This document shows positions 391 to 60,504 of a DNA stretch of 64,000 nucleotides, one piece after another. Within the stretch, counting starts at the first letter, position 1. The number at the start of each line of letters is the position of its first letter. The notes under the pieces are model-generated. The model worked only from the letters and a program-made list of their open reading frames with translations. It ran no database searches and was not told where the DNA came from. The position numbers and the translations under genes were made by a program. Source of the stretch: a virus (lineage: Duplodnaviria; Heunggongvirae; Uroviricota; Caudoviricetes); IMG/VR virus record IMGVR_UViG_2585427757_000006; one strand, given 5' to 3'.

Positions 391-485
391 GCGTTTTTCC
401 TTTGTTCTCTAATGAGCGTTCAACTTCTTATATAAATATATCATCATCTATCGTAAGTAGTTACTTATCGTTAAGGCTGTTTTGT

Positions 486-2594
486 TCACTTTAAAATGAT
501 ACGAGATAGTTCAGTAACTACAGATGAACCAAGACTATCAACGCTCGTTACCAGGGCATGATTTGAGTAAAATCTCTCCGGTGCGTCAGTCATGATGCCA
601 ATTGCCATCAAATCAATATCAGTCTGCGTTTCAATTTGCTTCGCAACTGAACGCAAATGAGCGTCAAAACCTCTCCCAACAGCCCACGGCGCGCCATCAC
701 TCAGAACAAGCATGATCTTCCTGTCCTCCATGCGACCGGAAAATAACGATGCAAGGCTGGCTATGCTTTCACCATCCACGTTATTAAGAAGTGGGAATGT
801 GTAGCCTACGCACCCCATACGTGAGCGAACTTCGCGAGAATTTACCTTTTCATTCCAATTTTTGATGATAGGTAGCATTAAAGATTCAAAGCGAGAGAAC
901 TCATACTTGACAGCCTTAAGTTCTCCTGCCGCCATATGACTACCAAATGTAGTGAAGCCGGTGATAATGTTGGGAACATTTATTCGATCAAGGGCATCGG
1001 CGATGGTATATGCACTTGCAAGAGCCAGTTTAATCGTTATACCACTCATTGAACCTGATAAATCAATCACTTGTTGAACACAGGCGTTAACGGCTTTAGA
1101 TTCTTCTTTTTTACGAAACACGCGAGCATCATTCATTGCTAATCTGTAGATACTAGAACCATGAATGCGCCCCCGACGCTGGCCCGGTATAAACTGAACT
1201 CTGTTTCTGCTTGCTATTGCTCGCTCCAGGTCTTTTGCCAGCGTCGACGAAACACCTGACGAAAGATGCTTTTCAATATATTTGTCGAAGAGCTGGTTGC
1301 CTTCAGGAACGATGCGATAGCGGCTGATTGGATATCCTCCCAAATCAATATCGGAGAATGTTTTAATAAGCCGTTTGATATGGGCTTCTGCCTGATCAAT
1401 GGAGCCGATGAAGTCGTATGAGCGATTGTATGGCCTGTATTCGCTTTTCGAGCTTTCTGTTAACTCGCTTTTAATCGTTTCGGATAGCGCATCTTCTGTC
1501 ATGCCTCCGACTTCATCTTCCATGCTATCCAACTCCTCTAAAGCCTCTTCCAGACTCATTTTTGACGGAGTTGGGATATCTGAAGAGCCGTCTTCTGTCG
1601 TTTTTCTTTTTTCGTGGTCAGCGGTTAATGATTCTGACGCCGCGTTATCAGAAGCATCAGAATCTGATACCTCTTTATCATTTTCTGTATCATCGAATAT
1701 TGTTTCTGATGATTCAGAATTATCTGAATCATCACTGTCGTTATTATCATGTTTGTGCTTACTATGTGATTCTGATTTGATAGATTTGTGGTTATCTAAC
1801 ACTGAGGGTGTCTCATGATCTTCGTTGTCTTCACTGTTTTCTCCAGAGGCATCCGTCTGGTCAGCGTCTGAAGGATCGGAAGTTTTTCCCGGAGCTGACT
1901 CCTTACCTTTGCTTTCACTTTCAGTGTCTTTGAGGATCTTAGCTATGGTCGCAGCCACCTTTACACAATCCTCGGTGCAAGACATGTTACGCACGGCCAC
2001 ATCGATACCATGTTCTTTTAATAATGAAATTGGTTTCTCAATGACAGGCCAATATTCATCCATGAAATCTACGAACGGTGCTTGGCCATCCCAGGCTCTT
2101 ACAACCGGACAGAGAAAGAAGTTTAGAAAAAGCGCGCGCTGATCTTTGCCACAATAAGCAATAGCCTCTGAAGCCTTTGGTTTAAAGACTTTTTCGATTA
2201 TAAGGCGCTGAGTTGCCATCAGATTACGTCTTGTTCCGTTAAAGACCTGACCCATTTTTCGCTCGATGAACACGTCTTCTAAGGCATTCCATAGCGACCA
2301 GGAAGGAACGCGTCCTTTTTCTCTCATTTTGTTGGACACACGAATATCGGTAAACAAAATGTGAGCAACCTCATGATCGAGAAATCCGCGCACAGCATTC
2401 ATCAATGCCGGTGTTGCGTTATCCGGGATTGATGGGATGTTTACGAGAATTGGCTCTCCATCATCGTTATAGCGTACATAAGCGTCGTCCCCTCGTTCTG
2501 CAACAGGGATGTTTTTACCTGAAAGGAGAGCGACTACTCGTTTTACACTGTCACGGAAGTCCTGAACCTCTTTGATGGAACGTTTTTTAGACAT
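486..2594 (-). CDS. CobT-like protein with C-terminal von Willebrand factor A (VWA) domain and long acidic Asp/Ser/Glu-rich linker
   Basis: 702-aa ORF; C-terminal DxSxS MIDAS-like motif (VIDLSGSMSG) and VWA-like fold signature; acidic low-complexity linker (DSDDSDNSESS...); family assignment from memory. Confidence 0.65.
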   Translation of the reverse strand: MSKKRSIKEVQDFRDSVKRVVALLSGKNIPVAERGDDAYVRYNDDGEPILVNIPSIPDNATPALMNAVRGFLDHEVAHILFTDIRVSNKMREKGRVPSWSLWNALEDVFIERKMGQVFNGTRRNLMATQRLIIEKVFKPKASEAIAYCGKDQRALFLNFFLCPVVRAWDGQAPFVDFMDEYWPVIEKPISLLKEHGIDVAVRNMSCTEDCVKVAATIAKILKDTESESKGKESAPGKTSDPSDADQTDASGENSEDNEDHETPSVLDNHKSIKSESHSKHKHDNNDSDDSDNSESSETIFDDTENDKEVSDSDASDNAASESLTADHEKRKTTEDGSSDIPTPSKMSLEEALEELDSMEDEVGGMTEDALSETIKSELTESSKSEYRPYNRSYDFIGSIDQAEAHIKRLIKTFSDIDLGGYPISRYRIVPEGNQLFDKYIEKHLSSGVSSTLAKDLERAIASRNRVQFIPGQRRGRIHGSSIYRLAMNDARVFRKKEESKAVNACVQQVIDLSGSMSGITIKLALASAYTIADALDRINVPNIITGFTTFGSHMAAGELKAVKYEFSRFESLMLPIIKNWNEKVNSREVRSRMGCVGYTFPLLNNVDGESIASLASLFSGRMEDRKIMLVLSDGAPWAVGRGFDAHLRSVAKQIETQTDIDLMAIGIMTDAPERFYSNHALVTSVDSLGSSVVTELSRIILK

Positions 2595-2692
2595 GGCTAA
2601 TCCTTTGTTATGAAAACAAATTATTTACTAGTGTGTTTAATGTAGCACTGCGCGAACAGGGAACTAAGCCATTCGCGCAGGGAGAAGAGGGG

Positions 2693-2905
2693 TTAACAGA
2701 TTCTGACGGCTAAAGACCCGGAGCCGATATTGAGAAGCGTGAAGCGTTTGTTGTTAAGTTCGAATATAAAGCCAGTTGTGTCATTCACACCAACCTGAAT
2801 CTGCTCATTCGGTAGATCGGTGAGGATGTCAGCTACACACTCATCAGCTAATTTCTGTACGTGTCCGATCTCAAGAGCGATTAGGCTGGAAATAGTGGTG
2901 TTCAT
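2693..2905 (-). CDS. hypothetical small protein
   Basis: 70-aa ORF in track; no recognisable motif. Confidence 0.3.
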   Translation of the reverse strand: MNTTISSLIALEIGHVQKLADECVADILTDLPNEQIQVGVNDTTGFIFELNNKRFTLLNIGSGSLAVRIC

Positions 2906-3155
2906 TCAATCAATCCATTCTAACTTATACTATGGTAAGGAATACTACTAAAATTTATATCAATACTGAATACATTCATATCATATGCAAGTTAATTTTC
3001 TTACCTGTTTTGGGCTAATTTTTCTCCGTGCAATGGCCTTTAACCGGTCTTTTAAGTGTCTATCGAAAAAATGATAATAGCTTTACAACCCTAACCTTTG
3101 ATGTAATATCGGTAAGCACTTACCAGAGAGAATTGAACGCGCAAAGGTTGTAACA

Positions 3156-3542
3156 ATGTCTGACAACAAGATTGAATTTATAGAAAGTCGCTATGCTGCT
3201 TTTATCGCAGGGCTGATTGAATCCTCACCTATGAGTCAGGCCCAAATAGCCAGACTTATTGGTTATAAAAATGCCAACAACCTTTCTTTAATTAAAAGTG
3301 GCAAAATTCCTTTGCCTATCGATAAGGTTCGTCCGTTGGCGCTGGCGCTGGGTATTGAGCCAAGTCGTCTTATGATGATGGTGCTGGAAGAACGCCAACC
3401 TGAACTCGCAGCATTTTTATACAAAGAAGGCACCGCTCCTCTTAACGAGGACGAAAAACAGGTTCTTGCTGCATATAACGAGCGATTCGGTAAAGAGAAA
3501 GGCGCATCACAAAAGGTTGTTGAGGCTATAAAGTCTCTATGA
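3156..3542 (+). CDS. putative helix-turn-helix DNA-binding protein
   Basis: 128-aa ORF; N-terminal segment SQAQIARLIGYKNANNLSLIKSG resembles an XRE-type HTH; convergent with recombinase gene. Confidence 0.45.
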   Translation: MSDNKIEFIESRYAAFIAGLIESSPMSQAQIARLIGYKNANNLSLIKSGKIPLPIDKVRPLALALGIEPSRLMMMVLEERQPELAAFLYKEGTAPLNEDEKQVLAAYNERFGKEKGASQKVVEAIKSL

Positions 3543-59553: not shown

Positions 59554-59970
59554 TTACCACCAGGCGCAGAAGGTCAGTCTGTTATTGTGAAAGTCGTGGT
59601 TCTTAATCAGATCTTCCACAAGCTCTTTCAACTGCCCCACATCATGCCAGTAACCTTCGTCGTACTCCTGACTGCCGAAGAAAAAACCTTCCCGAGTAGG
59701 CAAGTACTCTTCGCAATTGCTTTCGTTTATGTGCATCAAATGAGCTTTCAGAAGACAAATGTCATTCATCGTTAATTCTAAAAGCTCACAATTTTCGACT
59801 TCACCTACGTTGCGCTCCATCCACCCAACGAGCGCATTGAACTTACGGAAGTAAGCAACCTGCTTTCTGGATGCCTCGTTATTCAGATCGTTTTTAGGCT
59901 GTGTCTCGATATAGATATCAAGTCCCATGATGGTTTCCTTATTAACTTGCTTCAGTAAAATCATTTTCAC
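59554..59970 (-). CDS. hypothetical protein
   Basis: 138-aa ORF; possible internal start at MGLDIYIE. Confidence 0.45.
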   Translation of the reverse strand: MKMILLKQVNKETIMGLDIYIETQPKNDLNNEASRKQVAYFRKFNALVGWMERNVGEVENCELLELTMNDICLLKAHLMHINESNCEEYLPTREGFFFGSQEYDEGYWHDVGQLKELVEDLIKNHDFHNNRLTFCAWW

Positions 59971-60012
59971 AAATCAGATAAGGCAGAAAACAAATTGTTA
60001 TCGGGCTTAATA

Positions 60013-60037
60013 AAATGGCGCGGTTTACGCGCCATTT
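60013..60037 (-). terminator. intrinsic terminator for minus-strand gene 60046-60441
   Basis: aaatggcgcg-gttta-cgcgccattt hairpin with T-rich tail on minus strand. Confidence 0.5.
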
Positions 60038-60045
60038 AAAGAGGA

Positions 60046-60441
60046 TTAAGCGAATACGCTTTCAGGGATTAAGGTGTCGGCAGGAATGCCAGAGGTAATG
60101 CGCAGGCCGTACTGACCAATCCAGGTAGTGTTGGTATTCAGGCTGGAGGCGAATACGGTGTTAACCATATTCATCATGGTTTCAAACACCTCTTCATCAA
60201 CCTGGCGGAAGTAGTTCTCGATTTTCAGCAGCAGCGGGTCAGTTGCATCGAGAATGGACTGGTATTGAGTCGCGTACTCGCCGCCGGAGGCATCACCTTT
60301 ACGCACGATCGTACTGGCCTGGACTTCGGCACCAGTTTCGGTGTTGTACGTAACAACGGTAATTTTTGCCACATTCTTACCTTCGGCGGTTTCAGAGGCA
60401 TAGTAAACATCAACTGTCAGTTTTTCGCGTTTAACGGTCAT
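60046..60441 (-). CDS. hypothetical protein
   Basis: 131-aa ORF; motif-I element about 45 bp upstream. Confidence 0.5.
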   Translation of the reverse strand: MTVKREKLTVDVYYASETAEGKNVAKITVVTYNTETGAEVQASTIVRKGDASGGEYATQYQSILDATDPLLLKIENYFRQVDEEVFETMMNMVNTVFASSLNTNTTWIGQYGLRITSGIPADTLIPESVFA

Positions 60442-60504
60442 TTCACTCTCCGTAGTGTATTGGTTATTTTTATATTCTATAATCGTAAGTATTTACTTAC
60501 AATA

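What the first reader, a model, noticed from the sequence alone, without database searches (positions are those of the whole stretch)
454..60500. Recurrent palindromic intergenic motif I: TAAGTA-NN-TACTTA(C/T)C
I read at least 17 copies by eye, mostly 10-60 bp upstream of minus-strand operon starts. Positions: 454-469, 5971-5990, 8447-8462, 11959-11978, 17233-17247, 17354-17366, 21867-21883, 27512-27530, 34423-34444, 40911-40930, 44488-44502, 46317-46328, 46403-46421 (inside the portal 3' end), 47912-47929, 49951-49965, 53430-53449, 60486-60500. Genes served include tail fibre, tail tip, major tail, decoration, scaffold, portal, lysis and ParB-like genes. The dyad symmetry and distribution suggest a phage-specific promoter element or a global repressor/activator operator.
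Basis: seen in the sequence. Interest (0 to 1): 0.7.

Follow-up and report, generated by a model that had tools for sequence, protein, structure and literature searches.

The report
Dispersed 20-bp dyad operator motif
The window is part of an SSU5-like phage-plasmid that carries a conserved 20-bp palindrome (ideal form ATAGGTAAGTACTTACCTAT) in front of most of its lytic gene blocks; it is most likely the binding site of one phage-encoded regulator protein, and I found no description of it in the papers I could search.

Summary
The window is 98-99% identical to Escherichia phage-plasmids CMS-2020a and Cyrano (SSU5 group). Exact TAAGTANNTACTTA occurs 5 times (0 expected), and 26 times with up to 2 mismatches (1.7 expected). 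The correct register is a 20-bp near-palindrome, ATA(A/G)GTAAGT.ACTTAC(C/T)TAT. The window has 13 strong sites, 12 of them in the 11% that is intergenic (null 0.01). Whole genomes have 28-31 sites, at the same junctions in Cyrano, SSU5 and a Klebsiella relative. Identity is 85% inside the motif against 65-69% in the flanks. The exact 18-mer occurs almost only in SSU5-like elements. Three of the 17 listed positions are not full sites. The two arms are conserved independently. There is no compensatory change, no G-U bias and no orientation bias. This points to a double-stranded DNA site for a dimeric protein rather than an RNA hairpin or a directional promoter. Position relative to sigma-70 elements varies, as for dispersed repressor operators such as P1 C1. 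The best binder candidate is the XRE repressor at 3156-3542, and a winged-helix protein at 50009-50275 is the main rival. Binder and sign of control remain unproven.

The parts
453..472 (.). weak motif site between cobT and cobS
   Evidence: PWM 11.3 bits. The orthologous site is conserved in Cyrano, SSU5 and the Klebsiella relative and is followed by a conserved TGATAyATT / TATAAG.
3108..3127 (.). core-only site ATCGGTAAGCACTTACCAGA, 28 nt upstream of the putative repressor gene
   Evidence: Sequence. The same variant is conserved in the Klebsiella relative and in L052. It is flanked by an inverted repeat that covers the repressor's ribosome-binding site.
5970..5989 (.). motif site upstream of the glutaredoxin gene
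   Evidence: PWM 22.9 bits.
8442..8461 (.). motif site after hyp39, upstream of the tRNA cluster
   Evidence: PWM 32.5 bits, the best in the window. Conserved in three genomes.
   Evidence: PWM 18.8 bits. Orthologous sites.
11958..11977 (.). motif site upstream of hyp34, followed by TGTAAGAAT
   Evidence: PWM 25.7 bits. The extended -10-like TGTAAGAAT lies 8-9 nt downstream in the gene direction.
17227..17246 (.). motif site upstream of hyp31 and the helicase block
   Evidence: PWM 24.2 bits.
21863..21882 (.). motif site upstream of the holin gene
   Evidence: PWM 23.2 bits. A conserved extended -10 (TGATATAAA) lies about 21 nt downstream.
27511..27530 (.). motif site between the J and tail-fibre genes
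   Evidence: PWM 25.5 bits. A G+C hairpin follows immediately.
34424..34443 (.). motif site between tail genes M and L
   Evidence: PWM 19.8 bits. It overlaps a predicted TGGATA-17-TATCAT promoter. The hairpin downstream co-varies between genomes.
40911..40930 (.). motif site between Tc1 and the major tail gene
   Evidence: PWM 21.5 bits. It overlaps a predicted TTGAAT-18-TATACT promoter. The hairpin downstream co-varies. In LF82 RNA-seq the downstream gene is 2.5 log2 higher than the upstream one at macrophage 6 h.
44486..44505 (.). motif site 8 nt after the major capsid stop codon and just before its terminator
   Evidence: PWM 25.1 bits. Terminator at 44479-44463. Conserved.
46402..46421 (.). 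motif site inside the 3' end of the portal gene, filling the spacer of a near-consensus promoter
   Evidence: PWM 27.2 bits. TTGAAA-17-TATGAT at 46427-46399 is the best sigma-70 match in 34-54 kb. In the distant lineage L014 the encoded peptide changes but a dyad is kept.
47909..47928 (.). motif site between TerL and the portal gene (overlaps the TerL stop codon)
   Evidence: PWM 23.8 bits. Conserved in three genomes and, as a variant, in L014.
53429..53448 (.). motif site in the divergent region between ParB-like and UvsW-like genes
   Evidence: PWM 21.8 bits. Conserved, with a variant in L014.
60485..60504 (.). weak motif site between hyp106 and hyp107, after a terminator
   Evidence: PWM 12.6 bits. 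In Cyrano the site lies in the spacer of TTGTAA-17-TAGAAT (read by eye).
3156..3542 (+). candidate binder 1: XRE-type HTH protein (CYRAN_45 family, putative lysogeny repressor)
   Evidence: Weak HTH_19 match and a phrog_8 match annotated 'transcriptional regulator'. Expressed about 10x above background in the LF82 lysogen. Homologs occur only on contigs of about 100-116 kb from Enterobacteriaceae. The recognition helix is conserved across lineages. Absent from SSU5.
50009..50275 (-). candidate binder 2: 88-aa winged-helix protein just upstream of terS (CYRAN_123 family)
   Evidence: AF2 pLDDT 82. Top fold matches are MarR-family and small wHTH proteins. Present in every SSU5-like genome. 31% identical to the syntenic gene of lytic phage nickie.
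55836..56354 (+). candidate for an RNA-level reading: FljA-family protein with two Hfq-like domains
   Evidence: Pfam Flag1_repress, E 2.5e-84. AF2 model and fold matches to Hfq. Among phages, found only in SSU5-like records.

Best explanation
The motif is a dispersed set of operators on double-stranded DNA. Each copy is a 20-bp dyad, with flanks up to about 28 bp (aaTG-ATAGGTAAGT.ACTTACCTAT-CAtt), bound by a homodimer of one phage-encoded regulator. About 25-30 copies sit at the heads of the separate lytic transcription units of the phage-plasmid, covering replication, nucleotide-metabolism, virion and lysis genes. I commit to negative control. The protein binds over the -35/spacer region, or just downstream of the start site, of sigma-70-type promoters and keeps the many units silent in the plasmid prophage, as C1 does in P1. 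The XRE-type repressor encoded at 3156-3542 is the best candidate.

Shown here: the motif, its dyad symmetry, its enrichment, its positional conservation under selection, its restriction to this clade, and its overlap with some predicted promoters.

Inferred: that a protein binds it, which protein, and the sign of control.
For: - Enrichment.
- Dyad register: only spacings 2 and 6 occur. The perfect 20-bp palindrome occurs twice in the Klebsiella relative, where the top de novo 8-mers all belong to the motif.
- Symmetry: the arms are conserved independently, z -0.7 to +1.3 for excess complementarity. G-U versus A-C mismatches in the sense strand are 55 versus 46. Conservation is mirror-symmetric with respect to gene direction.
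- Selection: in 19 orthologous triples, identity is 0.85 in the motif and 0.65-0.69 in the flanks. The site inside the portal gene is kept as a dyad while the encoded peptide changes.
- Clade restriction: all 31 IMG/VR stretches with the exact 18-mer are SSU5-like. Of the 4 stretches in 596 Gbp of genomes, the two long enough to test are SSU5-like.
- Variable geometry relative to promoters, as expected for operators: exactly in the 17-bp spacer of TTGAAA-17-TAT(G/C)AT at two sites; 8-10 nt upstream of conserved extended -10 elements at about five sites; abutting a start codon at one site.
- Link to lysogeny: lytic relatives with the same genome plan lack the motif in the 50 kb examined.
- Repressor candidate: a conserved variant site lies 28 nt upstream of its gene. 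Its recognition helix is conserved across lineages that share the motif.
- Expression: in the LF82 lysogen this protein is expressed while motif-linked genes are at background. Under stress, several motif-linked units are among the most induced.
- Precedent: P1 has many dispersed C1 operators.
Against: - No binding was tested.
- SSU5 lacks the XRE repressor, yet its sites show the lowest lineage-specific substitution rate, 0.039 against 0.090 in flanks. SSU5 still keeps repA, parA and hicAB, so the loss may be recent.
- Most sites have no recognisable -35, and several sit between a stop codon and a hairpin with no obvious promoter.
- The site next to the repressor gene lacks the best-conserved outer TA positions.
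- Induction of motif-downstream genes against other genes is not significant (p = 0.10).
- One repressor acting directly on both early and late units is unusual.
- The TA-every-4-bp pattern is unexplained.
Confidence: 0.42

Rival explanations
1. The motif is an activator box of phage-specific middle or late promoters, built like the Lpa-dependent late promoters of P1. A dimeric activator replaces -35 recognition. The candidate is the 88-aa winged-helix protein at 50009-50275, which sits just upstream of terS as lpa sits upstream of pacA. The -10 would be the TAYnnT formed by the last three motif bases plus three flank bases, and transcripts would start about 10 nt downstream, often at the foot of a stabilising hairpin.
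For: - P1 late promoters are AAGTnACTT + 4 nt + TAnnnT. The ideal motif has AAGT.ACTT + 3 nt + TATCAT.
- TAnnnT occupies motif positions 18-23 in 13/22, 13/21 and 15/20 sites.
- Both near-consensus promoters place their -10 exactly there.
- The candidate protein is a wHTH, is present in all members including SSU5, is at background in the lysogen, and is induced 3.6 log2 together with motif-linked units.
- Sigma-70-like sites are depleted in the structural region, 12 against 20.6 expected.
- Constraint on the sites persists in SSU5.
- Co-varying hairpins start 2-11 nt after several sites.
Against: - TAnnnT is equally frequent on the antisense side, so there is no directionality.
- Several sites are too close to start codons for a start 10 nt downstream: 1, 2 and 10-12 nt.
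- At least three different geometries relative to -10 elements occur.
- No Lpa homolog by tblastn. Profile comparisons give probability below 1%.
- The box-to-hexamer spacing differs from P1 by 1-2 bp.
- The wHTH protein has an ortholog in lytic phage nickie, where no recurrent dyad was found in 24 intergenic regions.
- The motif also precedes replication and nucleotide-metabolism genes.
Confidence: 0.25
2. The motif acts in RNA. In the polycistronic transcripts it is an operator, as a hairpin or a sequence, for the conserved FljA-family protein at 55836-56354. That protein would block translation or alter the stability or termination of the downstream cistron, as FljA is described as preventing translation of fliC mRNA.
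For: - A full-length FljA-family protein (E 2.5e-84) is conserved in every SSU5-like element, including those of Klebsiella.
- It is predicted to be two Hfq-like domains, an RNA-binding fold with no HTH.
- Papers describe FljA-type regulators as preventing translation of fliC mRNA.
- Many sites lie between a stop codon and the next ribosome-binding site, with no room for a promoter.
- Several lie immediately upstream of terminator-like hairpins.
Against: - There are no compensatory changes between the arms.
- There is no preference for G-U over A-C in the sense strand.
- Conservation is mirror-symmetric. That is expected for a DNA dyad and is unnecessary for a sequence read in single-stranded RNA.
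- No Rfam family matches.
- The resemblance to fliC leaders is limited to short A/G-rich stretches (and memory).
- The distance to the start codon ranges from 1 to about 130 nt.
Confidence: 0.12
3. The motif is a binding site for something other than a dedicated phage transcription factor. Options are a host regulator (half-site TACYTAT equals the NarL/NarP heptamer TACYYMT; the inner phase resembles the RcsAB box; the centre resembles the SlmA site), or one of the two ParB-like proteins at 52063-53411, which could act as a KorB-like global silencer or in plasmid organisation.
For: - Two ParB_N proteins are encoded in an operon whose own upstream region carries a site.
- KorB-type systems use about a dozen dispersed palindromes on one plasmid (established knowledge).
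- The half-site identity to the NarL heptamer and 10/12 similarity to the SlmA and RcsAB consensus sequences come from memory and were not tested.
Against: - The arrangement is tail-to-tail with a 6-bp gap, not the NarL 7-2-7 arrangement.
- The best-conserved positions are the outer TA.GTA, not the SlmA-like centre.
- The ParB-like genes are also present in lytic relatives that lack the motif.
- The exact 18-mer was found in only 4 stretches across one representative genome per species; the two that could be tested are SSU5-like and none came from an E. coli, Salmonella or Klebsiella chromosome.
- A distant lineage changes the inner bases at all its sites in step, as expected for a co-evolving phage protein.
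Confidence: 0.1

Closest known systems
C1 repressor operators of phage-plasmid P1
   Same: Many copies of one short site are dispersed over a plasmid prophage of about 100 kb. They lie next to or over sigma-70 promoters of separate lytic transcription units, at variable positions relative to -35 and -10. One or more lie at the repressor's own gene.
   Different: P1 operators are 17-bp features annotated on either strand (asymmetric by established knowledge), with an unrelated sequence. No C1 homolog is present here. In P1, late structural operons are not under C1 operators but under Lpa boxes, whereas here a single motif precedes both classes.
Lpa-dependent late promoters of P1 (9-bp '-22' inverted repeat plus a -10 hexamer)
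   Same: A dyad with the same tetranucleotide arms (AAGT/ACTT) is followed a few bases later by TAnnnT. About a dozen or more copies head dispersed operons. The activator gene lies just upstream of the terminase genes, as the wHTH gene does here. One P1 box serves two divergent promoters.
   Different: The arms abut, or are 4 bp apart, instead of 1 bp apart. The gap to the hexamer is 3 nt, not 4. The conserved dyad is 20 bp, and its strongest positions lie outside the AAGT/ACTT core. There is no directional bias and no Lpa homolog. The motif is not restricted to late genes.
Conserved inverted repeats (CIRs) bound by the phiC31 repressor; dispersed intergenic palindromes and start-associated sequences of mycobacteriophage clusters O and K
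   Same: Highly conserved short dyads or motifs recur in tens of copies in short intergenic gaps of one phage lineage, close to gene starts (from memory, not checked here).
   Different: The hosts, sequences and proteins are unrelated. For the mycobacteriophage motifs the function is itself unsettled. No comparison was run.
FljA operator in the fliC mRNA leader
   Same: A FljA-family protein is encoded by every member of the clade. Many sites lie just upstream of ribosome-binding sites.
   Different: The motif shows no signature of RNA structure selection. It is a perfect DNA dyad. The fliC leader shows no convincing copy.

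Membership tests
P1 C1-type dispersed operators | Many dispersed copies upstream of lytic transcription units of a plasmid prophage | tested here: met
   28-31 sites per genome at conserved junctions.
P1 C1-type dispersed operators | Sites overlap or abut sigma-70 promoter cores | tested here: inconclusive
   Clear at two sites, where the motif fills the spacer of TTGAAA-17-TATGAT or TATCAT. Plausible at about 6 more. No recognisable promoter at the rest. No fixed geometry.
P1 C1-type dispersed operators | A C1-family repressor is encoded | tested here: not met
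   tblastn of P1 C1 against the window, Cyrano, SSU5 and the Klebsiella relative gives only E >= 1.6.
P1 Lpa-dependent late promoters | 9-bp inverted repeat AAGTnACTT centred near -22 | tested here: inconclusive
   The same arms, AAGT/ACTT, form the motif centre, but at spacing 0 or 4 instead of 1. No transcription start data.
P1 Lpa-dependent late promoters | -10 hexamer at a fixed short distance on the transcribed side only | tested here: not met
   TAnnnT at motif positions 18-23 is as frequent on the antisense side: 13 vs 9, 13 vs 14, 15 vs 13.
P1 Lpa-dependent late promoters | An Lpa homolog is encoded | tested here: not met
   Best tblastn E 0.29. hhalign probability below 1% against the wHTH and FljA-like families. 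Remote fold-level relatedness was not examined.
P1 Lpa-dependent late promoters | Restricted to late (virion and lysis) operons | tested here: not met
   Sites also precede SSB, NrdA, ThyX, Dam, SbcD, cobS and the hyp31/helicase block.
RNA operator of a FljA-family translational repressor | A FljA-family protein is encoded | tested here: met
   PF03614, E 2.5e-84. Tandem Hfq-like fold.
RNA operator of a FljA-family translational repressor | RNA structure maintained by selection (compensatory or wobble-tolerant changes on the sense strand) | tested here: not met
   No excess pairing over independent arms. G-U 55 vs A-C 46.
RNA operator of a FljA-family translational repressor | The protein binds the element in mRNA | not testable with these tools
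   Needs CLIP or an RNA gel shift.
KorB/ParB-type global plasmid regulon | A ParB-family protein binds dispersed palindromes | not testable with these tools
   Two ParB_N proteins are present. They also occur in lytic relatives without the motif.
NarL/NarP 7-2-7 sites | Two TACYYMT heptamers, head to head, 2 bp apart | tested here: not met
   The half-site TACYTAT fits the heptamer, but the arrangement is AKRRGTA-N6-TACYYMT, the opposite orientation with a 6-bp gap. The NarL consensus is from memory.
Any curated RNA family (Rfam 15) | Match at gathering score | tested here: not met
   Only three tRNAs matched in the window.

The most novel reading that the evidence does not exclude
The dyad and the clade-specific tandem-Hfq (FljA-family) protein form one system. 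A ring-forming Sm-like protein would read the five TA steps spaced 4 nt apart, in nascent RNA or in DNA, at about 30 junctions. It would globally gate translation or termination of the lytic genes of a plasmid prophage. That would be a silencing layer not known for any phage, and a second role for the flagellar phase-variation repressor family.
Probability: 0.08. Interest if true: 0.85.

Novelty: new variant of a known kind. Interest (0 to 1): 0.5.

Why it matters
SSU5-like phage-plasmids are common in clinical E. coli, Salmonella (pHCM2 of S. Typhi belongs to the group) and Klebsiella, and some carry resistance genes. How they stay silent or switch to lytic growth is essentially unknown.

A single 20-bp dyad that marks about 25-30 control points gives a direct handle on that regulon. 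It defines the probable transcription units. It offers a simple probe for pulling out the master regulator. It gives a sequence signature that recognises the clade almost without false positives.

It also shows a layout different from P1. In P1 the repressor operators and the late-activator boxes are two separate motif sets. Here one motif covers both early and late units.

Tried and rejected
- **Sigma-70 promoter built into or fixed to the motif:** rejected. No -10 or -35 lies at a constant offset, and the edge hexamer is symmetric.
- **RNA hairpin kept by base pairing:** rejected as the main reading.
- **Intrinsic terminator:** rejected. The arms are A+T-rich with no T run. The real terminator-like hairpins are separate elements next to the sites.
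- **Known RNA family:** none.
- **Exclusion from genes as a trivial effect of stop codons:** partly true. TAG/TAA occupy two of three frames on each strand, and four Cyrano sites overlap the upstream stop codon. This cannot explain about 13 strong copies in 6.9 kb of intergenic DNA (null 0.01).
- **P1 C1 or Lpa homologs:** none.
- **Literature:** searches for the sequence, for SSU5 promoters and for Cyrano found no description of the motif. One 2026 preprint on a phage-plasmid and promoters could not be opened. The Yamamoto and Kutsukake paper on FljA was not held.
- **LF82 RNA-seq as a test of activator against repressor:** uninformative. p = 0.10 for induction. Junction changes are significant only against all junctions (p = 0.046), not against junctions with intergenic gaps of 30 nt or more.
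- **Co-occurrence test outside the clade:** not possible. All homologs of the XRE repressor, the wHTH protein and the FljA-like protein found in the large database lie on SSU5-like contigs.
- **Co-variation of the repressor with the motif variant of lineage L014:** the locus fetched (L052) turned out to carry the standard motif.
- **Analogous dyad in the lytic relative nickie:** none seen in 24 intergenic regions of its first 50 kb. The remaining 62 kb was not examined.

Full report
**What the window is.** Bases 40000-50000 are 99.0% identical to Escherichia phage CMS-2020a and 98.2% to Escherichia phage Cyrano. They are 81% identical to Salmonella phage SSU5 and about 79% to Klebsiella phage-plasmids. 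Cyrano is the plasmid prophage of E. coli LF82 (PMC9928086). I used its annotation as a gene map and projected it onto the window by tblastn. The window runs opposite to Cyrano, so almost all lytic genes are on the minus strand.

- Exact TAAGTANNTACTTA occurs 5 times against 0.00 expected.
- With up to 2 mismatches it occurs 26 times against 1.74 expected.
- In the Cyrano genome, convergent TARGTA/TACYTA pairs occur only at spacings 2 (7 times) and 6 (9 times), and at no other spacing from -6 to 30.
- This and the aligned sites show that the unit is a 20-bp near-palindrome, ATA(A/G)GTAAGT.ACTTAC(C/T)TAT, with weaker flanks aaTG...CAtt.
- The information peaks on five TA steps exactly 4 bp apart. 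I cannot explain this.
- A weight matrix finds 21 sites in the window, 13 of them at 17 bits or more. Twelve of the 13 lie in the 10.9% of the window that is intergenic. Simulated sequences give 0.0 with window composition and 0.01 with intergenic composition.
Positions 17354 and 49951 are the loops of long perfect hairpins, a different element. Position 46317 is a half-site.
- I add 11087-11106 and a core-only site at 3108-3127.

**Conservation and distribution.**
- Whole genomes carry 28 (Cyrano), 30 (SSU5) and 31 (Klebsiella pJN2-26) sites, against 0-3 in Markov genomes.
- In the Klebsiella genome the perfect palindrome ATAGGTAAGTACTTACCTAT occurs twice, and the five most over-represented 8-mers all belong to the motif.
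- Sites occupy the same junctions in all three genomes.
- In 19 aligned triples, pairwise identity is 0.85 inside the motif and 0.65-0.69 in 40-nt flanks.
- A more distant element (L014, FljA-like protein 58% identical) has sites at the same places but with a different inner part, ATAGGTAGTTGACAACCTAT and ATAGGTAGCTGACCACCTAT. The constant part is therefore ATAGGT-N8-ACCTAT.
- At the site inside the portal gene, that lineage changes the encoded peptide while keeping a dyad. Selection there acts on the nucleic acid.
- All 31 IMG/VR stretches with the exact 18-mer TAGGTAAGTACTTACCTA are SSU5-like by gene content.
- The 18-mer occurs in only 4 stretches of the species-representative genomes. The two long enough to test are SSU5-like.
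- Lytic siphoviruses of about 110 kb share the portal at about 50% identity and the same gene order. The one examined, Pseudomonas phage nickie (first 50 kb), has no such motif.

**DNA or RNA, symmetric or directional?**
- Complementarity between the arms does not exceed what independent conservation of each arm gives (z -0.72, +0.32, +0.80).
- Mismatched arm positions are G-T as often as A-C on the sense strand (55 vs 46).
- Conservation is mirror-symmetric with respect to gene direction (p 0.08, 0.60, 0.35).
- No Rfam family matches.

These results fit a dyad read on double-stranded DNA by a homodimer. They argue against a hairpin kept by base pairing and against any element that carries direction.

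**Relation to promoters and terminators.**
- No -10 or -35 lies at a fixed offset.
- The only recurrent hexamer is TATCAT, made of the last three motif bases plus the flank. It is as frequent on the antisense side.
- Sigma-70-like matches are depleted in 34001-54000 (12 vs 20.6 expected). Three of the nine on the gene strand overlap motif sites. The best of all, TTGAAA-17-TATGAT at 46427-46399, has the motif exactly in its spacer. The RecA|membrane-protein junction of Cyrano has the same design.
- At about five sites a conserved (extended) -10 follows 8-10 nt after the motif (TGTAAGAAT, TGTCATAAT, TGATAyATT). This puts the dyad over the -35 region.
- Before the holin gene the -10 is 21 nt away.
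- At hyp60 the motif abuts the start codon.
- At six or more sites the motif is followed within 2-11 nt by a G+C hairpin that co-varies between genomes. After the capsid gene that hairpin is a real terminator. At three sites the motif follows a terminator.

Such variable geometry is usual for repressor operators and unusual for activator sites.

**Candidate binders.**
- *XRE-type HTH protein, 3156-3542 (CYRAN_45).* It is expressed about 10-fold above background in the lysogen, where nearly all motif-linked genes are at background. Its homologs occur only on contigs of about 100-116 kb from Enterobacteriaceae. Its recognition helix, GYKNxNxLSLIKxGxIPLP, is conserved in lineages that share the motif, although overall identity is 57%. 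A conserved variant site lies 28 nt upstream of its gene. It is absent from SSU5, whose sites show no relaxation. SSU5 still keeps repA, parA and hicAB, so that loss is probably recent.
- *88-aa protein, 50009-50275.* It is predicted with good confidence to be a winged helix of the MarR/PadR type. It is present in all members. It lies just upstream of terS, as lpa lies upstream of pacA in P1. It is induced under stress together with several motif-linked units. It also has an ortholog in nickie, where no dyad motif was found.
- *FljA-family protein, 55836-56354.* It is conserved throughout the clade, including Klebsiella. It is predicted to be two Hfq-like domains. That fits RNA binding rather than recognition of a DNA dyad.
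- *Two ParB_N proteins, 52063-53411.* They are shared with lytic relatives.

**Comparison with P1.** P1, the classical phage-plasmid, uses two dispersed motif sets. One is the C1 operators. The other is 11 late promoters with a 9-bp inverted repeat bound by Lpa. From the P1 record, the late promoters read AAGTnACTT + 4 nt + TAnnnT. The centre of the present motif is AAGT.ACTT, followed after 3 nt by TATCAT. The resemblance is real, but four features separate them: the spacing, the lack of direction, the lack of an Lpa homolog, and the presence of the motif before early-type genes. The present motif works like one of the P1 sets but belongs to neither family.

**Expression data.** In LF82 inside macrophages for 6 h, the most induced Cyrano units include:
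- CYRAN_46;
- CYRAN_60-62 (motif);
- CYRAN_56-57 (motif in a promoter spacer);
- CYRAN_4-5 (motif in the portal-gene promoter);
- CYRAN_12-13 (motif);
- CYRAN_81 (motif);
- CYRAN_123.

Overall, induction of genes just downstream of a site is not significantly higher than that of other genes (p = 0.10). Expression steps at motif junctions go in both directions. These data do not settle the sign of control.

**Verdict.** The motif is genuine, selected, specific to this clade and, in the literature I could search, undescribed. The best reading is a dispersed set of dyad operators for one phage-encoded dimeric regulator that coordinates the many lytic transcription units of this plasmid prophage. 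I favour repression by the XRE-type protein (0.42). The alternatives are an Lpa-like activator box read by the winged-helix protein (0.25), an RNA-level role with the FljA-like protein (0.12), and a host or ParB-type factor (0.10). Binding assays and 5'-end mapping would decide between them.

Noticed in passing
window 55836-56354 (+): A full-length FljA-family protein (Pfam Flag1_repress) is predicted to be two tandem Hfq/Sm-like domains. It is conserved in every SSU5-like phage-plasmid, including those of Klebsiella, so its target is unlikely to be host flagellin alone. Cyrano carries a second paralog.
   Followed up: partly
window 17329-17383 and 49930-49984: These are long hairpins with stems of 17-18 bp (GACCTGCTTCCGTATATA / TATATACGGAAGCAGGTC; perfect at 17329-17383, 88% complementary at 49930-49984) and A+T-rich loops of 19-21 nt. 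A third copy appears to lie in Cyrano near 78080-78130. One follows the parA operon, which is expressed in the lysogen. Another lies between the wHTH gene and terS. The loop at 49951 contains AAGTTACTT, identical to a P1 late-promoter box.
   Followed up: partly
window 44463-44479, ~40885-40905, ~34395-34420, ~27487-27507: G+C hairpins lie immediately downstream (in the gene direction) of motif sites. Their stems co-vary between Cyrano, SSU5 and the Klebsiella relative. After the capsid gene the hairpin is a canonical terminator. The others lack a clear T run.
   Followed up: partly
window 3083-3100 and 3142-3153: The inverted repeat TTACAACC..AACCTTTG / CAAAGGTTGTAA brackets the repressor-proximal motif site and covers the ribosome-binding site of the putative repressor gene.
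   Followed up: no
whole window: The Chi sequence GCTGGTGG is over-represented: 5 copies on the plus strand and 9 on the minus strand in 64 kb, against about 2 expected by chance. The Klebsiella relative has 17 + 10.
   Followed up: no
window 34001-54000: Sigma-70-like promoter matches are fewer than in shuffled sequence (12 vs 20.6 +/- 4.1) across the packaging, head and tail genes.
   Followed up: no
window 7476-7719 (-): A cluster of three tRNA genes lies about 720 nt downstream of the best-scoring motif site (8442-8461).
   Followed up: no
SSU5 (L004), between the tRNA-Asn gene and cobT, about 42600-42760: SSU5 lacks the whole segment that holds the integrase and the XRE repressor (CYRAN_40-46). 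It keeps repA, parA and hicAB, and motif sites of full quality. It also has an extra small 'repressor-like' gene (SSU5_116) and an Ant gene.
   Followed up: partly
L010 (Pseudomonas phage nickie, 1-50000): Lytic siphoviruses of about 110 kb from Pseudomonas, Rhizobium, Xanthomonas and Stenotrophomonas have a portal about 50% identical. In nickie, the one examined, the gene order is also shared (UvsW | ParB-ABC-wHTH-TerS-TerL-portal ... lysis, helicase, primase, ligase, cobT). Nickie's intergenic regions carry short G+C inverted repeats around TATACT/TACAAT-like hexamers instead of the dyad, and TGATAGGT occurs twice upstream of its capsid gene.
   Followed up: partly
window 12645-13835 (+): A 396-aa ORF lies on the opposite strand between the primase gene and hyp34. 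Opposite-strand genes occupy the corresponding place in SSU5 and the Klebsiella relative. It was not characterised.
   Followed up: no
Cyrano (L002) about 10570-10640, outside the window: A second intergenic word family (ACAGTGGATA / TAACCACT) is enriched near repA. These are probably iterons or DnaA-box-like repeats.
   Followed up: no
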